Below are positions 40,579-56,795 of a stretch of 64,000 nucleotides of DNA, in pieces. The notes beneath the pieces were generated by a model, which saw only the letters and a program-made list of their open reading frames with translations, made no database searches and was not told the DNA's origin. The translations under genes were made by a program, and so were the position numbers. The number at the start of each line of letters is the position of its first letter. Within the stretch, counting starts at the first letter, position 1. The stretch is from Yuukianura sp. NJ FZ-2021 (lineage: Eukaryota), in assembly GCA_046563655.1 (NCBI GenBank), contig CM102284.1:2666001-2730000 (forward strand), in the 5' to 3' direction.

Positions 40579-41281
40579 GGTTGAAGTAAACTTTGAGTCG
40601 GGTCATTGTACCCCCCAACTTGCATTGTATTGTACCCCCCTGTGTTAAGCCATCGCGGGAAATTCAAAAAAGCAACAAATCGCGCCCTCTAGTGCAACTG
40701 TCTTCAGTTTCGAAGAATTTTTTGCTTTGTACCCCCTCATTGTACCCCTCCATTGAGTTTAAGAAGTGGCAACGCTGGAATTTTTTTAAATCATTTGTCA
40801 CATTGTACCCCTCTGCACACAATCAGTTTCTGGTAAATAATTTCAATTCTGATGTTTAATTAAATTAGCCGAGCGAAGCGAGGCTAGGTTAGGTTAACTT
40901 GCGAAATAGTGATTGCATTAATTACAGTTGCGACCAGAAAAACGAGGAAATCAGTATTACGTTAGCAATTTCGTAAGTTGACCTAACCTAACCTAGCCTC
41001 GCTTCGCTCGGCTAATTTAATTGAATATTGAAATTGAAATAATTCGCATAACAAATCAATTCAATCAATATTTTCAAAACCTCCGGCGTTGCCACTTCCT
41101 AAATACAAAGGGGGGTACAGTGAGGGGGTACAGTGAAAAAATCGCTGTGCAACTAAAGAAACAAACACTAGAGGGTGCGATTTGTTGTTTTTTTGAGTTT
41201 CCCGCGATGGATTAACACAGGGGGGTACAATACAATGCAATTTGGGGGGTACAATGACCCGACTCAAAGTTTACTTCAACC
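40579..41281. mobile_element. 703-bp foldback/MITE non-autonomous DNA transposon with 8-bp target-site duplication
   Basis: TIRs begin GGTTGAAGTAAACTTTGAGTCGGGTCATTGTACCCCCCAA; CTGTAAAC at 40571-40578 and 41282-41289; arms complementary over most of their length. Confidence 0.92.
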
Positions 41282-43187
41282 CTGTAAACACCTAAACACC
41301 AAACAACAAAACCTAAACACCAAAGCTTTGTGGCAACTAAAAAGACTGGTTATTCATAAGTTGTTAACGTCAGTATTAAAGTTGAATTCTGCACAGCCAT
41401 AATAGTTGGAAAACTCGTATTCCACCAGAATTATATGACACTCGCGAAATTCCACGTCAATGTGCTCCAGAAACAAAGAATGAAGCAAAATGAAACGAAA
41501 AGAATGCAACAGAAAAAGTACACAAAATGTGTTTCTGGTGCCCGTATTTCATTTCAATAACAGGGTAGGGCGTGGCAAGTAAAAATAAACACTGGAAAAA
41601 TAATTTTTTAGTTTATTTGAGGAATTTTGGAGGTGGAAGGGTGGAAATGTAGAAAAATAAGAGTTAATTCTGATCGTTTCCAAAAAGCGTAAACTTGATC
41701 ATTGTTTGGTGCTATAATCTCCTACATCGTTTATAGTTTTGGGACATATTGCACATAGCAGCGAATTTCAAGCGTTTACTTATTGGACGTACTACGCCCT
41801 ACACGTAATTAGCGCATGGCGAAACACCGAAAGTAAACGAGAAATCGGTGATTTGATTACTAAGTAAGAAATTACTTCGAAGTCTAGAATTGCATAGGGA
41901 TAAAATATACGGATAGAGGAATAAGAACAAATAAATAAATATGAAATACACAATTATGATTCATGGCTATCTTAAGCTGTTGTGTTTAGACTGTGGGAAA
42001 CTCTGCATGGCGTAATTTAAGCTTGAATCAGAAACTGAAAGGCAAGGAAAATGGAAATTAAAGTAAAAAAAAAAAAAAAAGACTGGAAAGCAGCGGCTGT
42101 ACAGAACACAGTTCCCCCTTCCAGAAACTAATCGTGCTCATGTCGGGCAGAGATAAGGCGAAGTGTGAGTGCTTGTTCCGTCACATTTAGATTTGGTAGA
42201 CGACATATATGCATGGAGTTGGATTTAATTACAGTTAATTGTTAATTACTCAATGATTTAGTATACTTTCAAATTGGAATTGGAAACATGATTACTCCAC
42301 ACTTCTGTGCATATTTTCCAGTTCGGATAAACCGAAGCATTCTAAGAACAACAAAGGCGGAGTAAATCGGAGAAGTCAGAGGATTAGTAGGTCTGCCTTC
42401 TGAAATTACAGACACAACGGGTACTATCCGCCTTACTTCAGCCAGCTAGTCTCGGTCTCAAAGAAAAGGCGAGTCTAGGTCTCTAGGTTTAACGTAGAAA
42501 ATCACCTCTTACCTCACCTCGCTCACTTTCGTCTCTCCGTCATTAACATTTTTGTAGTAATTTTAACTTTAAACTTCTTCGGATCAACGTTGAAGATTAT
42601 TCTACGGGTAAGTTTCTCGTTAATAGCACGATCGTGACCTAAGGTCACAGCCCAACAATACTTGTTGTTCGGAGGAGAGGGGATATAGCTTTTAGCAATA
42701 CTACAAGACCCTAAAGGAAACGAATGGGAAGGGAAGTGCATGGGAGAGCGACACGAGATGTATGTTTTTTCATAAGGGTCGAGGAAAAGCGAACTATTAA
42801 TTGATTAACCAAGGTCTAAAGTAGCTTGTAAAAATGTTTGACTTGTTTAACTTTAGACGGCTAACTTATTCGTCCACTACTGCATCGTGTCAAGGCTGAG
42901 AGATGGGTTAGGGTGAATGGTCCTTGCAGAGTACAGACTCAAGAATATCTTGAATTGAAGATGGAATGTATCGGCATAGCAACCACCCTTCATTGTTTGC
43001 TTTTCAAGTTTATGTGAAGTTTACCATTAATTGCGCGATTTGAATGGTTTATTTCCTAGGCAACAATAACGATTCTAAATCAAACTAACCGCAGACTCCA
43101 AACATGCTCGAAAAATGTCGCCCACTTTGTGTGGTTAGGCTGGATTTTTTTTTGTAAGAATCGAATTCTTATTTGGTTTGTTGCAGA

Positions 43188-44379
43188 ATGGCTCCTCCAA
43201 CATATGCTGACTTGGGCAAGGCTGCTCGTGACGTCTTCAGTAAGGGTTACCACTTCGGAATCTTCAAGCTCGATTGCAAGTCCACAACGAGCGGCGGAGT
43301 AGAAATTAACTCCGGAGGAGTCCACACCCTTGACGAAGGAAAGGTCTCCGGTTCCCTTGAAACCAAATACAAGGTTCCCAGTTATGGTAAGACAACCGAT
43401 GCTGTGATGAAGGCTTTCAAATTGTAAGTATTATTGCTGTTAAACCAACTGTAAATAAATTCATATTTCCCAGGATTGACCTTTACTGAGAAGTGGAGCA
43501 CCGATAACAACTTGTTCACGGAACTTGCTTGTCAAGACAAAATTGCTCCAGGAGTCAAGGCTGTTCTCGAAGCCAATTTCAATCCAGATTCTGGGTAAGT
43601 TGGCTATTTGAAGAACGATCATCCTCCTCCCAAAAGATTTCGCAGAAAAACTGACTAAATTGAATCGTTGATCTTGCAGAAAGAAGGATGGAAAGTTCAA
43701 GGCGCAATACAAGGCACTGAATGCGACTGTTGATGGCATTTTCTCCGGAGGTGATGAAGCCAACGTCCTTGTCAACGGTTCCATCGTTTTGGGCTACCAG
43801 GTCGGTTGGAATGAGCTAATCGGATGGGAAACATGTCTTGCATACCCATTTCATTTGTCTATTCTTTTTCAGGGCTGGCTTGGTGGTTATTTGGTCGAGT
43901 ACGATACCAATGAAGGGAATTTGAAGAAGAACAACTTCACTCTTGGCTATTGCTCCGGAGACTTCCAAATTCACGGAAACGTGGACAACGGTCAGCAATT
44001 CGGGGGAAACTTGTACCAGCGCGTCAGCAACCGCCTTGAGACAGGTATGCCAACTTCTCCATCTCAGCATTGTGCTATACAGGCCTATTTATGCAGAAAG
44101 TGACTTCTGTGATCCTCACATTTCTTTATGCTTTTAGGTGTTCAATTGGGATGGAACGCCGGAGAGGAGAACTCAACTCGATTCGGAATTGGTGCACGAT
44201 ACCTGCTGGATGCCAGTTCTGCCATTCGAGCCAAAGTAAATAATCAGTCTCAAGTTGGACTTGCCTTTGAGCAGAAGGTTAAGGATGGAGTCACTCTAAC
44301 TTTGTCGGCTATGGTCAATGGAAAGGATTTGCAAAGTGGAGGTCATCAGATTGGCTTAGCACTTGAGCTAGAGCCTTGA
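43188..44379 (+). CDS. VDAC: Voltage-dependent anion channel (mitochondrial porin), 5 coding exons
   Basis: MAPPTYADLGKAARDVFSKGYHFG, GKVSGSLETKYK, GLTFTEKW.TDN, GYQGWLGGY, RAKVNNQSQVGL, GGHQIGLALELEP. Confidence 0.97.
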
Positions 44380-45175
44380 ACCAGCTGACGTCAACGAGTC
44401 AACTTACACGAAAAAATAGTTATCTGTCTGTTAATTCCAAATTCTTTGTGACCAGTTAATAATTTGAAGCTGAGGAGAGCAAAGCACACCGTAGACAATT
44501 TAACAAAAAGTATCAAAAATTACTAAAATGTTAGTAATTAAAAGTCAGCGATTAGCGAGTTCATACAATTCTTCGAGTCAACGTGTTTTTTTTCTCTTGC
44601 AATTTTTAGTTCAATCTTCCTGGCCTTGGTTAATGGTTAGCTTTTGGATTTTCCAAATGAAAATACTAGACTGAGATACTCCGCACTTCATTGCCTTAAC
44701 TGCACTGGTTAGAATTGCTACTTGCTTGAGTTTAATAAAAACTCCAACTCCTAGACGATAGACTAATTGATTAAATTGATTAATCGTGATAGTATGCTGC
44801 TAATTAATTACAATTTTAAAGACTGCATCAGTTCGATAATTTTGAAATTTATTGAACAGACGAACTTTAGTAGGTGCTGGATGGCGACATTTGATTGAAC
44901 AGCGGTTATTATCTGTTCTCTATCGACCAATTGCCCGAATCTGCACAAAACACAGTTGATGAAGAGACCTACTGACTAATAGTAATACTCAGAGGTGAAT
45001 TATTTCGACTTTCTTCTTTTTCTTGTACTAATACAATTTGGATCGCGGGGAAGTACAATTTTTAAGTGTGAATGCTATAGAGAAACTCAATATGTCCATG
45101 GTAACTGATCTGTCAATTTAAAGAAAAGTCAGGGGATTCTCATCGTTGGGATATTGCTGGAGCGACAGACGGATT

Positions 45176-48100: not shown

Positions 48101-50925
48101 CGCCTATTCGAAACAGATCGGAAAATTGTACAACCAATTCATGCAACATCGTTAAAGCCCATTCAGTGGTACTGTTAACTGATGTGGAACTTACCACTGC
48201 CATCATCCGTCACCTCCAAAGCGGCAAACTGACTAAAGATTTGCTCTAACGGCTTTCGGCACACATTTGCAAGAACATTGAGTCTTCCACGATGTGGCAT
48301 TCCCATAATTACAGATTCGACTCCAAATTCAGTAGACTTGTCGATAACTTGCTTCATCGCTGGAATCAACATCTCACACCCCTCGAGTCCAAACCTAGAT
48401 TAACATAATTTTTTTAAATGCAGATTATAGGCGTTTTTAGACTTAATTTCCAAATCTATTGAATTAACATGTTGCCCAACCGTTTTTCACTGGACCACTT
48501 TCGAGCCAAAAAGGACTCCAATCCTGCCGATCTGCTCAATCGGGCCAAAATCAGCCGTTTCGTTTCGACGTCAAAGTGCTTCACTCCGGGAGGTTCCAGT
48601 CGTTGACGAATCCAATTGCATTGCTCCAAGCTATTGATAAACATAAATTCACATCCGATGCTACGACAGTATGCATCTTCGAGACGGGAGAGGATTTCAC
48701 GCAGTGGCAACCGCTTCTCCTTGCCTCCGATGAACGTTGTTGCGGGAAGCTTGAAGATTCGGTCCATGTCTTTCTCCTCTGCGAATAATTCAATATAGTA
48801 TTTATTATTCAAGTCTTTAAATCAAATTTTAAAAAAAGCTAAACCGCTTCACTACGCATGCGCATTTAAACAACTAAAAACGACGAAATCAAAAGTTAAA
48901 CCAAGCAAGAGCATTTCAAACAGCTATTGCAAAAACAAAATAAAGTGTCGATTGGGTAGATTACTGGCGCGTTACCAAATGAGTAACTCTTGTAGATGAG
49001 TTCCATAGGCGTGGAATCGTCTAAATCCGCACTTTGAATACCTAGGGGGTCCAAGTCGGCGATGTTATGACCACGTATCTAAGATCAAGAAAACTATCGC
49101 ACTTAAAAACCAGTCAACGATTACTACGATTATCGCATTATCATGATTCTTTTTCAAATTTGAATTTCATGTTTAGTGTGATTAGTGTAAGAAATGCGCA
49201 TACGCAGTTGAAGCAAAAGCAAAATTGATTAGGCACAACCCCATCTCGTTCAAAAGGTCAACTTAAAGCATTACCCAAATGCCTTCGAAATACAAGTTCC
49301 TTCTTGGCATCCTTCACTTCTGAATGGAGATCGGCATAATTAATGTCCAGAGGATCCAATTTAGCCACATGATGACCCCGACTCTACAAAGGCAGTTTCC
49401 GGATGTACAAATACTCATTGCCAGTAACGTAATATGAATGACGACAATTTTAGCCAACGTGTTGCAGGAGTTGGAGCCAACTGTGCTGGAACAAGTTACT
49501 ACCAGTAATGTGTGAAAATATTCGTTGAACAAAGCAAACCAAGTTAAAGTATTGCTACCCCCATTGGCAAGCGAGGAGTTTTGCAAATAGGATTAATAAA
49601 TTATTTTACTTTATTTATTTATAATATCGTCAGTTTGAAATGTTGATCTCGCATGCAATTGCAATTCGGATTGGAATCGGGAATAGGATATCAGTTCCTC
49701 CTTTAAAGATAAATTAAAGTGCAATGTGTAGCGAGTTCAGAGAAAGCGAACCGTAGGATTAAGGACAAACTGGCTCCAACTTCTGCGATGAATTTTAACG
49801 ACGAACGTTTCACCAGTTCGTGGTGTCACGTTTTAAGACAACGTAGTATACAGCACACCCACAATCGAACGTATTATGGAAATAGTATTTCCTCCGTTCT
49901 TATCATCGACCATGAATTCCCAAGCTTAATGAACTGAAGAATACAACCTTTCCTGCGCATGTAAATCCGAGTGTAGACATTATTAGTGCAATGCAATCTA
50001 ACCAACTTAATTACAGTAAGCAGCGTGCCCGCGATTCAATAATTTAAACAAACGACACAACAGCCTAGCGTGAAGAGCCGAAATGCTGTGTAGCAGTGAG
50101 TGCAAAGTACTGATAAACAGGGTTACTTGACTCTCAATGCCCAGTTCGTTCATCGCCAGCTTTAACCAATGTTTAGTACAATGTTTAAACTATTAGGTTA
50201 GTCAACGTAAAATAAACGCTTCGCACCGAAGCGTTCGGTCAAAGCGTTGGTGGTGTGCAACACTGCGCCTGTTTAAACTCTGCAGGTGATTGATTTGATT
50301 ACCCTCAACTTAATTGGCGTGAAAGGGAGAAGAACTGGACATTCGAGTCTTTTTTATGCTAACTTAGTATGCGTTCCCCGTAGACATACCTGATACGACC
50401 GGATAATTGCTTGAACAGCAAGGTGATCATCGATTAACTGCTCGTCTACAGCGGGAGACATGGCCGGAACTCCTGCAAACGCCGGCACGAGACTTGACAC
50501 TGGTAGAGTATTTCGCGGCGGTAACGTCAAAGATGGAGGAGGAACGTAGGCTGTACCAGGGGCCGCCCCTGTGGATGAGTTTCGGAAGAACGCATCCCAA
50601 GACTGTCAAACAAACATTAGAACGGTGTTCACTACTTAGCTATAAACAGGGTCGGAAAATCTTCAAGTTATTGGTATCGTTAACTCACAGCATGGACTGA
50701 CTTTGGATCTTGAAGCCATGAATTGTACATCTCCTCAACGTAATTCGATGTGGAACCATTCAGAAATGGCTCTGCTGCCAATGCTTGTGTAGATAAGTTA
50801 CGTTGATCCTTATTCGCCCCAGATTTTGTCGCTGTACTTTCATGTCGAACACTACCAATTCCAATACTCCGTAGTGCTGCCGGAGGCACTAGTGAATGCC
50901 GCAGGAAACTTAACCGGGTGTACAT
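45176..50925 (-). CDS. OGDH: 2-oxoglutarate dehydrogenase E1, mitochondrial, with two mutually exclusive exons
   Basis: [43 protein letters not shown] (TPP motif), [45 protein letters not shown]. Confidence 0.97.
48976..49078 (-). other. OGDH: OGDH mutually exclusive exon B (103 nt)
   Basis: AG/GT-bounded; [34 protein letters not shown]; phase 0 to 1. Confidence 0.88.
49275..49383 (-). other. OGDH: OGDH mutually exclusive exon A (109 nt)
   Basis: AG/GT-bounded; [36 protein letters not shown]; phase 0 to 1. Confidence 0.85.
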
Positions 50926-53524
50926 TATGTCCGATTTTCACCAGCTATTGCGTTGATGCAGTCTGAAAGACCAAAATGAATTAATTCTTTCACGTTTAAT
51001 TTCCTTAAGATTAACTATCCTGTCAAGTCTCGGACTTCGAATAACGCAAATATAGTATGTATTACTATTGGCGAAGAATAGGATGCTTTTCCTTATGGAA
51101 AATTGAATACGACACTCATTGACTCATTAAGGTTTATCACTAGGTAACAAACTTACGTCAACAGTGAACGAACGCCGGCTAAGAGCGCTGGAACTAGCAC
51201 TAGCCCTCCTCGGATTGCTTGGATTATTTAGATATAACAGGTTACGTAGTTCCTAACTTAAGCAAGGATGTGTACTTAAAAAAAACTACAATTTTGTATT
51301 TCTTGCAAACCCCCGAAATAAATTCACAAATAACAGCTGTGATGGGGAAGGGGATGTAGGAATGCAGCCAATTCAAAGACCAAGGCAAGGTCAATCGAGG
51401 TGTACCTAATTCTCTGAAAAGTCTGAAACTGCAGAATATGAGGAAGAGGATCCGATTTGACTGTGAGCCAATTTTTATGCCAGAAAACCGCATCAACTGA
51501 CTAATCCTTCGACGACGCAGACTAGCCTTACCCTAAATAGTAGCTAAGGTTAAGGTTATTCAAGGTTAGGTGATAGATGATGTAAATGTCAATGTGTTCG
51601 TATCATGGGTACATGAATGTGGTTCTTTCATAGGTAATACGTTGCTTTAGTTGGTAGCAAAATGAAAAAAAAACAGCATTTGGAAAAATACCAAAATTGC
51701 CAGAATTTTTTATACCTAGGTAAAATTTTTTGCGAACTGATATCTATTCTACCTAAACATAGTTATGTATTATATTTACAGAAAGCATAAGAAGCAAAAA
51801 AGGCTTAGCTTTGGAAGAAATGAAAACTACACAGCTAAAAATTTGTGTCGCCTTTTTAAAGTGCTTTAAAATTGGAACAGCTTAACTCAAAATCTACATT
51901 GGTTGGCACAGGTCTTCAGGAATTTTAAACGCCACAGTTATTTATAATTTAAAAACGCAGTTAAAAAATATTGGAGTATTACCGGAATAATGCCGAAGAT
52001 GACCGAAGCGTTGTTACACTTTCACACTGGAAATCACGAGTTGTGGGATTCACAACCGGTTTCACTCTATAGATGGGATCAGTGCACAAATAAAACGCAG
52101 TATACAGCACTTGTAATTTTTTTGACTCCCAGTCCCAATCTCTTGCACTTTCCAACCTTCTTGTAAAAATTAACCTAAGTAATATTACTACCTTGCTACT
52201 ATAATGCATTTAGAGTAGCAAAGCCGCAGCCGCAGCTATCAGGCATGGGCGTTCCTACTCCAAGCTTTTCTGTTTTTGTCAAAATTAGTTTTACTCAAAA
52301 CGTCTTTCTCCTTTTGAAACGCCTGAGCTCAAAAATCGCATCGCTAGATCGCAGATTCCACTTCAGCAGAAGATCATCTCGCAGTCGCAGCAAGATAGCG
52401 GACGAGGTTTACAAACGTATCCGTCTCAACAACTGACTAAAGGGTAGAAGGCTTTTTCATCACGATGTGCCCGTCTTGATATGGCTGAAATACTGAGAAA
52501 GTAATACAATAACATTCATTGAAATGAGGCTAAATTAAGCCATTTCCGTTTGTTCGAGCCATTATACTTACCTGAACGTGAAACATCAGAAAGTTGGAAA
52601 TCAATGCATCAACATCAACTTCCGCAAAATATTTCAGGAATACCTGGTGCACTTTGTTCTCTCGAAACCACAAAAGTCCTTAGGGCCCCTCGTCCCTTAA
52701 AGGGGTTACTTTTGGGGCTTTTTCTTAAACTAAACTGAACTTCTTCTTTTTTTTTAGGAGTCCAACAGTACAAATTTCATCGTCTGGCGCTTCCCTTTAA
52801 TGTTTACATAATTTTTATTATTCTCATTACTTTAAGAAGTTATTCGTTAGAGTACTAATAATTCTAACATCATTAGGTCCTAACCATGGACAAACAGGAC
52901 ATGCACAAAGGGCACCAGATCCCTAGCTACTCCCCTCCAACGGGTTTACTATCTGGATGAATGCCAAACATGGTCAAGGTCAACCAACCTCGTCCTTGAG
53001 ATAACATAAAACAAAAGAAACGGAGAAACAAAGTTCATCTTTTCGAGACAAACAACTAAAACGCGACCTACTATTAGGAATAGTGTCACTCACAATAACT
53101 TTTACTACTTTCGGGTTGTGCATGCGCATGCTCACTACTACAGCGGCGTATTACAAGACGACAACAGTGAAAACGTTTTATTTCCCTGAAAATTTTCTGA
53201 CGTCAATAACTTGTAAGTCTTAATGCCTAAGTAATTATTTGTACTTCTCGCGAAGTGTTCGAATTTACACGTTTTCCCAAGGTCTGGTTACTATTAAGAT
53301 AAGCAGTAAAACAAATCGAAACTTCGAAACTAAAACGTTTAAAATCAAAGCTACGAAACCGATTATCATAGATTGCAAATGATTACTGACTACTTTTCCA
53401 CGTCGATGAACACATGCTCGATCATCAGAGAAAACACATTTGCCTAACTCGAGTCGTGCATGCTTTTTTACGACGGAAATTGTGATGCCTATTGATTTAG
53501 ACAAAACAGTACACAGATTCGTCT

Positions 53525-55646
<2,122 letters not shown>

Positions 55647-56795
55647 TTAAAGATCCAATAAAGAATTACTGTCTGAACTGACTTAATTGTCAAATTTTTG
55701 ATTCTTCGGTCGACCTGTCGTTATAATAGAAAGTAATTCCTGATTTCTAATCTTGATCCGAATAGGTGATGGGTGGGATGGGATAGGGGACGTGATGGAT
55801 ATGGTCAAACTGTACGTACCGTATTGGTTGAGCTGAGCATGAGAAATAAGAAAGGCCAAAGCAAAACTAATCCCCTGAAAAACGGGAAACATCCACCCCA
55901 GCGGTAAGAGGTGCGGAACAAATTCCGCAAAACGGAGATGCGATTTTTTAGGATTAACAAATCGTTTTGCATCAACTTTGGGGCATGGATTCCGAATCTG
56001 AAATCCGTTTTTGGCGGATTTGTAACTAGCTAGATTTCTAGCTAGTTATAAAAATAACATTGTCTCTAAACTTCTTACGCGTCTTTACAATGCTATAAAA
56101 GAAGAAGATTTAAGAACTGTATTTGAGGGAAAATTAAAAATGCACTAACGTTTTTGGTATCACCACAAGTAAAAACTTATTTCCCTTTGGATATTTGTGT
56201 TTGATACCTTAATATTATGTTAATACATTTATGTTGGTACTTACATGTCTCTAAACATTTGAAAGCTTTTCTCTTGAACTGCATTAGCGAAAATCGTGTA
56301 GTGCATAAAATCGTAAATTTCTAATTACTCTACCACATCAATTGTTTATTACTTCAGCATAATGTTTTCAACTTTTCAAAGTTTTCAACAATTGTGATAA
56401 GCATTCGTGCTTGGTTAGACTGTAATGTACTTTTTCGAATAAGTACAATTTATTATCTAACAGGCAAAATCCACTTGTAGCTGTTCTAAAATTTCTGGAG
56501 TAAACTTTAGCACTTTCCACAAATAAATACTAGGTAGTTTGTCTTTTATTGTCTTCTCCTTAGCGTTACGGACTTTTTTCATTATTAAAAATTGTTTTGA
56601 TTAACGTAAGTTCCTTGCGTTATATGTGCGTGAGAATGGTTCGCTTCAAGGAAAGGCATGTAATGTAGTATGCCATAATGTGTATTTCAAGCTTAAATTA
56701 ACAAAAAAAAAACTAATTCAGTCAAAAATTCGGATAGACAATATTATATTAACGTTGTACACCAAATATAGTATAACTTTAATAGTAGTAATTAT

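What the first reader, a model, noticed from the sequence alone, without database searches (positions are those of the whole stretch)
48846..49214. 22-bp intronic RNA stem brackets OGDH mutually exclusive exon B; pairing is complete only on the transcribed strand
Seen: in the pre-mRNA (minus strand) 5'-GCUUCAACUGCGUAUGCGCAUUU-3' (49214-49192, between exons A and B) pairs with 5'-AAAUGCGCAUGCGUAGUGAAGC-3' (48867-48846, downstream of exon B). This gives 22 bp with one bulged A and two G-U wobbles; on the opposite strand those two positions would be A-C mismatches. Known: competing long-range pairings (docking site/selector) control mutually exclusive splicing in arthropod genes such as Dscam1. 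Inference: this stem loops out exon B to allow exon A inclusion. A weaker partner for the same central arm lies upstream of exon A (AAUUGCAUGCGAG, ~49660-49648) and could loop out exon A, giving a bidirectional switch. Caveat: the core also resembles a palindromic NRF-1/Ewg DNA site.
Basis: partly seen in the sequence, partly recalled or inferred. Interest (0 to 1): 0.75.

Follow-up and report, generated by a model that had tools for sequence, protein, structure and literature searches.

The report
RNA stem bracketing alternative OGDH exon
Two short complementary intron sequences can fold the 2-oxoglutarate dehydrogenase pre-mRNA so that one of its two alternative exons is looped out, a known kind of splicing switch that here looks confined to one springtail-like lineage and is still untested.

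Summary
The stem is real. On the minus (transcribed) strand, 49214-49192 pairs with 48867-48846: 22 bp, one bulged A and two G-U. Duplex energy is -33.6 kcal/mol against -24.2 on the other strand. Pair probability is about 1.0 in contexts of 541 to 1521 nt.

It exceeds shuffled introns (0 of 100). It is rare in real sequence of the same geometry: 8 of 1271 placements, 2 of them the stem itself.

It encloses exon B (48976-49078) of a paralogous exon pair. Both exons cover the same OGDH segment as human residues 11-39. Both are 3n+1 long.

The topology matches the validated downstream pairing of Drosophila srp, so looping out B and joining A to C is the best reading.

The support is thin:
- No RNA data exist.
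- Three more distant genomic loci carrying both exons show no equivalent stem.
- The only close genomes are nearly identical to the window.

It lies in a 533-nt segment missing from a close relative, so the bidirectional switch is not supported.

An NRF1/Ewg-like DNA site in the arm core cannot be excluded.

If real, this is a new member of a known kind.

The parts
49192..49214 (-). Upstream arm of the stem (selector-like). It lies in intron A-B and starts 60 nt downstream of the exon A 5' splice site.
   Evidence: Sequence; duplex; pair probabilities.
48846..48867 (-). Downstream arm of the stem (docking-site-like). It lies in intron B-C, 108 nt downstream of the exon B 5' splice site and 67 nt upstream of the exon C 3' splice site.
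   Evidence: Sequence; duplex. It is the only match in the window at up to 3 mismatches.
49275..49383 (-). Alternative exon A, 109 nt, in the phase of ...[20 protein letters not shown]...; AG at 49385-49384, GT at 49274-49273.
   Evidence: Aligns to human OGDH 7wgr residues 12-33. 82% identical to the exon joined directly to exon C in cDNA-like L001.
48976..49078 (-). Alternative exon B, 103 nt (...[21 protein letters not shown]...). The stem encloses it together with both of its splice sites.
   Evidence: Aligns to human OGDH 7wgr residues 11-39, E 1.5e-05. 97% identical in cDNA-like L022.
49079..49274 (-). Intron between exons A and B, 196 nt. It contains several AG dinucleotides close to its 3' end.
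   Evidence: Read; boundaries checked.
48779..48975 (-). Intron between exon B and constitutive exon C, 197 nt.
   Evidence: Read; boundaries checked.
48481..48778 (-). Constitutive exon C ([18 protein letters not shown]...).
50390..50603 (-). Upstream constitutive exon ending ...AIIRSYQ. The start coordinate is approximate.
49648..49660 (-). It is listed only to record that it is not supported as part of the system.
   Evidence: Chance-level pairing. It lies inside 49426-49958, which an X5 contig skips.

Best explanation
The two arms form a long-range intronic helix in the OGDH pre-mRNA. The helix encloses a 324-nt loop holding exon B, its branch-point and 3' splice-site region, and its 5' splice site. 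Forming it does two things. It hides exon B from exon-A-containing transcripts. It also brings the exon A 5' splice site (60 nt above the helix) next to the exon C 3' splice site (67 nt below it). Exon A is then joined to exon C rather than to exon B. Without the helix, exon B is the exon closest to C and is used. Because both exons are 3n+1 long, transcripts with both or neither are out of frame, so the reading frame backs up exclusivity. The arrangement is a single downstream selector/docking pair, like stem II of Drosophila srp, and it appears to have arisen within one springtail-like lineage.

Shown here: the complementarity, its stability, its statistical excess and its position. Inferred: that it forms in vivo and that it changes the A:B ratio.
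For: - Stability: 22 bp, -33.6 kcal/mol on the transcribed strand against -24.2 on the other. It is present in the MFE and centroid folds. Pair probability is about 1.0 in three contexts. Net stabilisation is 28 kcal/mol, and the upstream arm is only weakly engaged before its partner is transcribed.
- Excess over chance: 0 of 100 and 0 of 500 shuffles reach it. In real sequence with the same geometry, only 6 of the 1269 other placements (two other loci) do.
- Not a repeat family or a known RNA: the arms are unique in the window. No Rfam family matches (0 hits at E<=1).
- More than two palindromic sites: the ten base pairs flanking the 12-nt palindromic core are all Watson-Crick (read).
- The enclosed exon is alternative: A-type and B-type forms are separately spliced to exon C in relatives (L001, L003, L005, L007 against L006, L008, L021, L022) and in annotated isoforms.
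- Intact on a second haplotype: the X1 contig spanning both arms carries 5 substitutions and 1 insertion in 898 nt, all listed and none in an arm. Four substitutions and the insertion cluster at 48875-48921, right beside the downstream arm.
Against: - No RNA-seq could be examined; no RNA holder is listed.
- No covariation data. The only close genomes (X1, X5) are 95-100% alike. For X5, 19 difference rows were hidden, so arm identity there is not established.
- Three genomic loci with both exons show no stem above chance between the corresponding introns. L004, springtail-like: -16.8 against null -16.7, 41 of 100. L017: -26.0, 10 of 100. L018: only (TA)n microsatellites. Introns are not alignable at that distance, so the element is at most lineage-specific.
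- There is no competing second pairing, so this is not a full docking/selector competition system.
- The 461-nt region as a whole is not unusually structured (z -1.44; 8 of 100 shuffles fold as well).
- Strong inverted repeats do occur elsewhere in this window (19 at or below -30 kcal/mol on the minus strand).
- The strand asymmetry rests on two positions only.
Confidence: 0.5

Rival explanations
1. This is a young, neutral inverted repeat. A small inverted duplication or templated repair event left two 22-nt copies in neighbouring introns. The helix may form, but selection does not maintain it and it does not regulate exon choice.
For: - No equivalent stem in L004, L017 or L018.
- Comparable or stronger inverted repeats occur elsewhere in the same 64 kb.
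- One lies in the same gene: 50478-50461 against 49479-49462, -39.8 kcal/mol. Its intronic arm sits in a segment that is simply absent from X5, which shows such pairings come and go here.
- The two G-U positions look like two transitions since the duplication; both falling on the transcribed strand has a chance of about 1 in 4.
Against: - Placement exactly around one exon of the pair is improbable: 6 of 1269 other placements of the same geometry reach this strength.
- No similarity extends beyond the roughly 22-30 nt helix, as a recent duplication would leave.
- The arms are intact on the X1 haplotype, which differs at five places within 47 nt next to the downstream arm.
Confidence: 0.3
2. The arms matter as DNA. 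Each holds a near-consensus palindromic site for an NRF1/Ewg-type factor, which would serve as an intronic enhancer for this nuclear-encoded mitochondrial enzyme. The RNA complementarity is then a by-product of two palindromic sites.
For: - Each arm core is one mismatch from TGCGCATGCGCA.
- The only other sites at one mismatch or fewer in 64 kb are two overlapping ones at 53117-53134. They sit just downstream of an AATAAA after the JNK-like gene and about 30 nt upstream of a GTGAGT, so possibly at the OGDH promoter or first exon (this placement is my inference).
- NRF1 binds GCGCATGCGC as a dimer. A variant changed at the outer G, as in the downstream arm, kept binding with about 4-fold lower affinity. 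EWG is named as the fly homologue (PMC10810270, passages read).
Against: - A protein site does not explain ten extra Watson-Crick pairs in the flanks, in inverted orientation.
- Neither arm has the intact GCGCATGCGC (pattern).
- 0 of 26 relatives' loci hold the consensus.
- The motif enrichment is weak: 4 matches against 1.19 expected, and 4 of 100 shuffles reach 4.
- No such site was listed near the VDAC-like mitochondrial gene at 43.2-44.4 kb.
Confidence: 0.12

Closest known systems
Drosophila serpent (srp) exon 4.1/4.2 downstream pairing (stem II, Us-Dd), from Yue et al. 2016, PMC4691838 (abstract and sections 5 and 7 read)
   Same: Two tandem mutually exclusive exons. One arm lies in the intron between them and the other in the intron before the next constitutive exon. 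The helix loops out the distal exon and activates the proximal one.
   Different: srp has a second, upstream pairing that makes the system bidirectional. Its elements are conserved across Drosophila species, and disruptive and compensatory mutants were tested. Here there is a single pairing, no conservation evidence and no experiment.
Docking-site/selector systems with a downstream docker (14-3-3zeta, Mhc, MRP1, Dscam exon 4 and 9 clusters), as summarised by Ivanov & Pervouchine 2018, PMC6071210 (abstract and section 16 read)
   Same: An intronic element just upstream of the constitutive exon pairs with an element downstream of a variable exon, and the intervening exon is looped out.
   Different: Those systems have several selectors competing for one docker. 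Here only one partner exists. There is also no sign that the arms arose by duplication of one arm of an older hairpin.
Vertebrate OGDH exons 4a/4b, from Kralovicova et al. 2021, PMC7969005 (abstract, passages, and sections 24 and 34 read)
   Same: The same gene and the same protein segment, the stretch holding the DADLD Ca2+-related motif. Exon B here has SADLD and exon A has YADLH. In both cases the pair is a mutually exclusive paralogous exon pair.
   Different: In vertebrates exclusivity is enforced by distant branch points close to the 5' splice site, with a size-restricted intron and a long AG-free polypyrimidine tract. Here the intervening intron is 196 nt with AGs near its 3' end. Whether the two duplications share an origin was not tested.
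Human ATE1 exons 7a/7b competing intronic structures, PMC7797038 (only the search listing and the start of the abstract seen)
   Same: A two-exon mutually exclusive cluster controlled by long-range intronic base pairing.
   Different: ATE1 uses five elements, with two competing for a third, plus an ultra-long-range helix. Only one helix is found here.
NRF1/Ewg palindromic DNA site GCGCATGCGC, PMC10810270 (passages read)
   Same: The 12-nt core of each arm is one mismatch from the extended consensus.
   Different: Neither arm has the intact 10-mer. The location is intronic, and the flanks are complementary as RNA, which a protein site does not require.

Membership tests
Exon-looping intronic helix (single long-range stem that promotes skipping of the enclosed exon) | Complementary arms lie in the two introns flanking one exon and enclose both of its splice sites. 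| tested here: met
   The arms are at 49214-49192 and 48867-48846; exon B is at 49078-48976.
Exon-looping intronic helix (single long-range stem that promotes skipping of the enclosed exon) | The helix is stable and dominant in the predicted ensemble, on the transcribed strand. | tested here: met
   -33.6 kcal/mol; mean pair probability 0.96; ddG -28 kcal/mol.
Exon-looping intronic helix (single long-range stem that promotes skipping of the enclosed exon) | Disrupting the helix changes exon inclusion, and compensatory changes restore it. | not testable with these tools
   This needs a minigene or genome editing. No RNA run is listed for the species.
Docking-site/selector competing-pairing system (Dscam1, 14-3-3zeta, srp type) | Tandem paralogous exons are used in a mutually exclusive way. 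| tested here: met
   Both exons align to the same human OGDH segment. Eight cDNA-like contigs carry A or B but never both. Of 120 annotated proteins, 62 are A-only and 46 are B-only.
Docking-site/selector competing-pairing system (Dscam1, 14-3-3zeta, srp type) | Two or more alternative pairings compete, either several selectors for one docker or dual up/down pairs. | tested here: not met
   The best upstream-intron to intron A-B duplex is -18.7 against a null of -19.5 +/- 2.7 (54 of 100). The upstream-intron to intron B-C duplex is -23.4 (12 of 100).
Docking-site/selector competing-pairing system (Dscam1, 14-3-3zeta, srp type) | The arms are conserved or covary in related species. | tested here: inconclusive
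   The stem is absent from L004, L017 and L018, but introns are unalignable at that distance. The arms are identical in X1. For X5 this is not decidable, because 19 rows were hidden.
Vertebrate-type OGDH 4a/4b enforcement by distant branch points | The intervening intron is size-restricted, with the branch point near the 5' splice site and a long AG-free tract up to the 3' splice site. | tested here: not met
   Intron A-B is 196 nt and has AG dinucleotides within its last 60 nt. Branch points themselves were not mapped.
NRF1/Ewg binding site | An intact GCGCATGCGC (GCGCNTGCGC) dimer site. | tested here: not met
   The arm cores read GCGTATGCGC and GCGCATGCGT on the minus strand, each one mismatch from the 12-mer.
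NRF1/Ewg binding site | The factor binds the site. | not testable with these tools
   This needs EMSA or ChIP in this species.

The most novel reading that the evidence does not exclude
The OGDH exon pair covering the Ca2+-related motif is old: it is present in springtail-like and insect sequences here, at the same protein position as vertebrate 4a/4b. On this reading its exclusivity is policed by different, independently evolved devices in different lineages. Vertebrates use distant branch points. This springtail-like lineage uses a newly arisen RNA looping helix, whose core was recruited from an NRF1/Ewg-type palindrome. The same 12 nt would then act as a DNA site and as the nucleus of an RNA switch.
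Probability: 0.12. Interest if true: 0.6.

Novelty: new member of a known kind. Interest (0 to 1): 0.33.

Why it matters
OGDH is a rate-controlling enzyme of the citric acid cycle. In vertebrates its two alternative exons give Ca2+-sensitive and Ca2+-insensitive forms (PMC7969005).

The data here show that the same segment is alternatively encoded across hexapods. In one lineage a strong intronic helix sits exactly where it could decide which form is made.

If the helix works, it is a compact test case for two things: how regulation of an ancient exon pair turns over between lineages, and how new RNA switches arise. It has one helix, two 196-197-nt introns and two exons.

My searches found no paper on RNA structure at the insect or springtail OGDH exon pair:
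- (Nc73EF + mutually exclusive): 1 unrelated paper.
- 2 papers, one on the vertebrate OGDH exon pair (read) and one, by its title, on exonic splicing code and calcium-binding sites (listing only).
- (CG11661): 0 papers.
- (Collembola): 6 papers, 5 listed, none on OGDH by title.

The mechanism class itself is well known, so the gain is incremental.

Tried and rejected
- Whole-genome search: no genome is held for this window.
- Sequencing runs: no RNA holder is listed, so expression and junctions could not be examined.
- Viral contigs: 6 stretches matched a pattern, but none encodes a relative of exon C.
- Exon A peptide against longer proteins: 4 candidates, none significant. This is weak evidence, as the tool itself says.
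- Rfam on 48400-50600, both strands: 0 matches at E<=1.
- Transposon or repeat-family origin: rejected for this window. The arm is unique at up to 3 mismatches. GCGYATGCGY occurs only at the two arms. blastn of 48780-49274 against the window finds only short chance hits.
- The AT-only inverted repeat 48819-48835 / 49150-49166: set aside. It is low-complexity and crosses the main helix rather than nesting in it.
- Equivalent stems in L004, L017 and L018: none above chance. The (TA)n runs in both L018 introns were set aside as microsatellites.
- Pairing of the 53.1-kb palindrome with the arms: not pursued. Any copy of a palindrome pairs with any other, and it is unknown whether that site is transcribed.
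- X5 has no cover over 49432-49919. This is not a gap in the data but a contig join that skips 533 nt.
Contigs holding only exons A and B of the closest genomic relative (L002, which starts 13 nt before exon C) could therefore not be sought.
Full report
**What is there**

Read on the minus strand, the window holds an OGDH (2-oxoglutarate dehydrogenase E1) gene. The layout in the region of interest is:
- an upstream constitutive exon ending at 50390 (...AIIRSYQ);
- a 1006-nt intron;
- exon A, 49383-49275 (109 nt);
- a 196-nt intron;
- exon B, 49078-48976 (103 nt);
- a 197-nt intron;
- exon C, starting at 48778.

Exons A and B are paralogues. Both align to the same stretch of the solved human enzyme: 7wgr residues 11-39 for B (E 1.5e-05) and residues 12-33 for A (E 0.04). 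That stretch contains the DADLD motif discussed for the vertebrate exon pair 4a/4b (PMC7969005, section 34 read). Exon B reads SADLD and exon A reads YADLH.

Each exon is 3n+1 long, so including both or neither breaks the reading frame.

**The observation**

The arm 49214-49192 pairs with 48867-48846. This gives 22 bp, one bulged A and two G-U wobbles that would be A-C on the other strand. The numbers are:
- RNAduplex gives -33.6 kcal/mol on the transcribed strand and -24.2 on the opposite strand.
- The helix appears in the MFE and centroid folds of 48800-49260.
- Mean pair probability is 0.96 in 541-, 751- and 1521-nt contexts.
- It is worth 28 kcal/mol over the best fold that leaves the downstream arm unpaired.
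- Before the downstream arm is transcribed, the upstream arm is only partly and weakly paired.

One counterpoint: the 461-nt region as a whole is not unusually structured (z -1.44; 8 of 100 shuffles fold as well).

**Chance**

- Between the two introns, the best local duplex is -31.9 against -15.3 +/- 3.0 in dinucleotide shuffles (0 of 100).
- With full-length duplexfold it is -78.0 against -56.2 +/- 5.9 (0 of 500).
- Shuffles understate real genomes, so I also slid the same geometry (196 nt, a 103-nt gap, 197 nt) over the real window. On the minus strand, 8 of 1271 placements reach -31.9. Two are this stem, four belong to one inverted-repeat element at about 41.1-41.25 kb, and two lie near 4.0 kb.
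- A seed-based scan found 19 stems at or below -30 kcal/mol within 1 kb on the minus strand. This one ranked eleventh, and most of the stronger ones come from the 40.6-41.3 kb element.

Such stems exist in this genome. One landing exactly around one exon of the alternative pair is expected well under 1% of the time.

**Not a repeat, not a known RNA**

- The downstream arm has no other match in the window at up to 3 mismatches.
- GCGYATGCGY occurs only at the two arms (2 matches, 0.13 expected).
- blastn of the region against the window gives only short chance hits.
- Rfam gives nothing.
- The 12-nt core of each arm is palindromic, so two such cores would pair in any orientation. However, the ten flanking pairs (seven on the outer side, three on the inner side) are all Watson-Crick and only fit the inverted orientation. 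Two independent palindromic sites do not explain that.

**Is the exon pair really alternative?**

No RNA run is on record for the species. Relatives settle the point. A scan of metagenome contigs with exon C returned 26 loci, which sort as follows:
- Eight are cDNA-like, with the upstream exon, one alternative exon and exon C contiguous. Four carry the A type (L001, L003, L005, L007) and four the B type (L006, L008, L021, L022).
- Three are genomic and hold both exons in the order A then B (L004, L017, L018).
- The other 15 hold exon C without detectable A or B.

Among the 120 best full-length OGDH proteins found with a downstream exon, 62 carry only an A-type segment, 46 only a B-type, 3 both and 9 neither. 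They come from beetles, wasps, bees, ants, a damselfly, thrips and springtails, many of them labelled as isoforms of one gene.

The window's own strings (IRGHNIA......[19 protein letters not shown]) are shared with the Folsomia entry. [10 protein letters not shown] itself occurs in just three of the 108 proteins where my pattern found the region: Orchesella, Folsomia and an unnamed JGI contig. The organism is therefore probably a springtail or something close to one. The exon pair is old and already annotated in many species.

**Conservation of the stem**

This is the weak point. Only exons align between the window and any locus.

In the three genomic loci, the best duplex between the corresponding introns is at chance level:
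- L004, springtail-like by its A-type exon: -16.8 against -16.7 +/- 2.3 (41 of 100).
- L017: -26.0 against -23.0 +/- 2.6 (10 of 100).
- L018: only (TA)n runs in both introns.
- A general scan of these loci found no other exon-bracketing helix.

The closest genomic relative, L002, begins 13 nt before exon C.

Two near-identical genomes were laid on the region:
- The X1 contig spans both arms with 5 substitutions and 1 insertion in 898 nt. All are listed and none is in an arm. Four substitutions and the insertion cluster at 48875-48921, immediately inside the downstream arm.
- For X5 (organism B, 95-99% alike), no difference in an arm is among the 40 rows shown. Nineteen rows were hidden, and its contig over the downstream arm carries 3 unlisted differences, so identity there is not established.

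Neither comparison has the power to show constraint.

**The second pairing**

The best duplex between the upstream intron and intron A-B is -18.7 against -19.5 +/- 2.7 (54 of 100). In addition, an X5 contig joins 49425 to 49959, skipping 533 nt that contain this site. The system is therefore a single helix, not a bidirectional switch.

**Mechanism**

The helix encloses exon B with both of its splice sites in a 324-nt loop. It places the exon A 5' splice site (60 nt above) next to the exon C 3' splice site (67 nt below).

This is the topology of srp stem II. There, mutating either arm nearly abolished inclusion of the proximal exon 4.1, and compensatory changes restored it (PMC4691838, sections 5 and 7). 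It is also the topology of downstream-docker systems generally (PMC6071210, section 16).

I therefore take it to steer exon-A-containing transcripts to splice A to C instead of A to B. Exon B would be used when the helix is absent or when exon A is skipped. The reading frame acts as a backstop.

The vertebrate device for the same exon pair does not apply. That device uses distant branch points, a size-restricted intron and a long AG-free tract (PMC7969005, abstract and section 24). Here the intron is 196 nt with AGs near its 3' end.

**Rivals**

- A neutral young inverted repeat. In its favour are the lack of conservation and another strong pairing in the same gene. That pairing joins exon 2 (50478-50461) to 49479-49462 at -39.8 kcal/mol, and its intronic arm lies in the segment missing from X5.
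- A DNA role. Each arm core is one mismatch from TGCGCATGCGCA. The only other such sites in the window are two overlapping ones at 53117-53134, possibly at the OGDH promoter (my inference). NRF1 tolerates the outer-G change with about 4-fold loss of affinity, and EWG is its fly homologue (PMC10810270, passages). However, the motif excess is weak (4 against 1.19 expected; 4 of 100 shuffles reach 4), and it leaves the flank complementarity unexplained.

**Verdict**

The looping-out reading is the best available, at about 0.5. The bidirectional part is rejected. If real, this is a new, lineage-restricted member of a well-known class.

Noticed in passing
window 49426-49958: An X5 contig joins 49425 to 49959 with 24 other letters in between, so about 510-533 nt of the intron upstream of exon A are absent in that close relative. 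The segment contains an internal 16-nt inverted repeat (49464-49479 / 49771-49786, 94% complementary). It has no other copy in the window.
   Followed up: partly
window 50461-50478 and 49462-49479: Coding sequence of the upstream constitutive exon is complementary to a site about 80 nt upstream of exon A (-39.8 kcal/mol on the minus strand, stronger than the focal stem). It would draw exon A towards the upstream exon, but its intronic arm lies in the segment missing from X5.
   Followed up: partly
window 53117-53134: Two overlapping near-consensus NRF1/Ewg-like palindromes lie about 30 nt upstream of a GTGAGT and just downstream of an AATAAA following the JNK-like gene. This could be the OGDH promoter or a non-coding first exon.
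   Followed up: partly
window 50139-50473: There is a divergent haplotype of the intron just after the upstream exon, with 36 substitutions and 15 gap letters in about 280 nt. It is present at about one third of the depth in X1 and is the only form in X5.
   Followed up: no
window 40600-41260: An element with long, nearly perfect inverted repeats (stems of -50 to -64 kcal/mol, arms 120-660 nt apart) looks like a foldback or MITE-type transposon.
   Followed up: no
window 53525-55650 (-) and 43158-44380 (+): The neighbouring genes are a JNK/basket-like MAP kinase on the minus strand and a VDAC/porin-like gene on the plus strand, judged from ORF translations only.
   Followed up: no
L018 1243-1290 and 3597-3630: In this hymenopteran-like locus, both introns flanking the B-type exon carry (TA)n microsatellites that could pair with each other (-30 kcal/mol). 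I set this aside as low complexity, but the topology is the same as the focal stem.
   Followed up: partly
L022 1770-2493: Exon 1, exon 2, the B-type exon and exon C are contiguous without introns, with about 1.7 kb of other sequence upstream. Other contigs of the same sample show introns (L002, L025). It may be a cDNA-derived contig or a processed copy.
   Followed up: no
proteins P0015, P0022, P0028, P0047, P0058, P0079 and others: In several beetles and Hymenoptera, some B-type isoforms carry an extra segment between the B-type exon and exon C (for example ...SEELRRQVQ... or ...QELQYRVAALMKK...). This suggests a further cassette exon. The 197-nt intron B-C of this window seems to have no room for one.
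   Followed up: no
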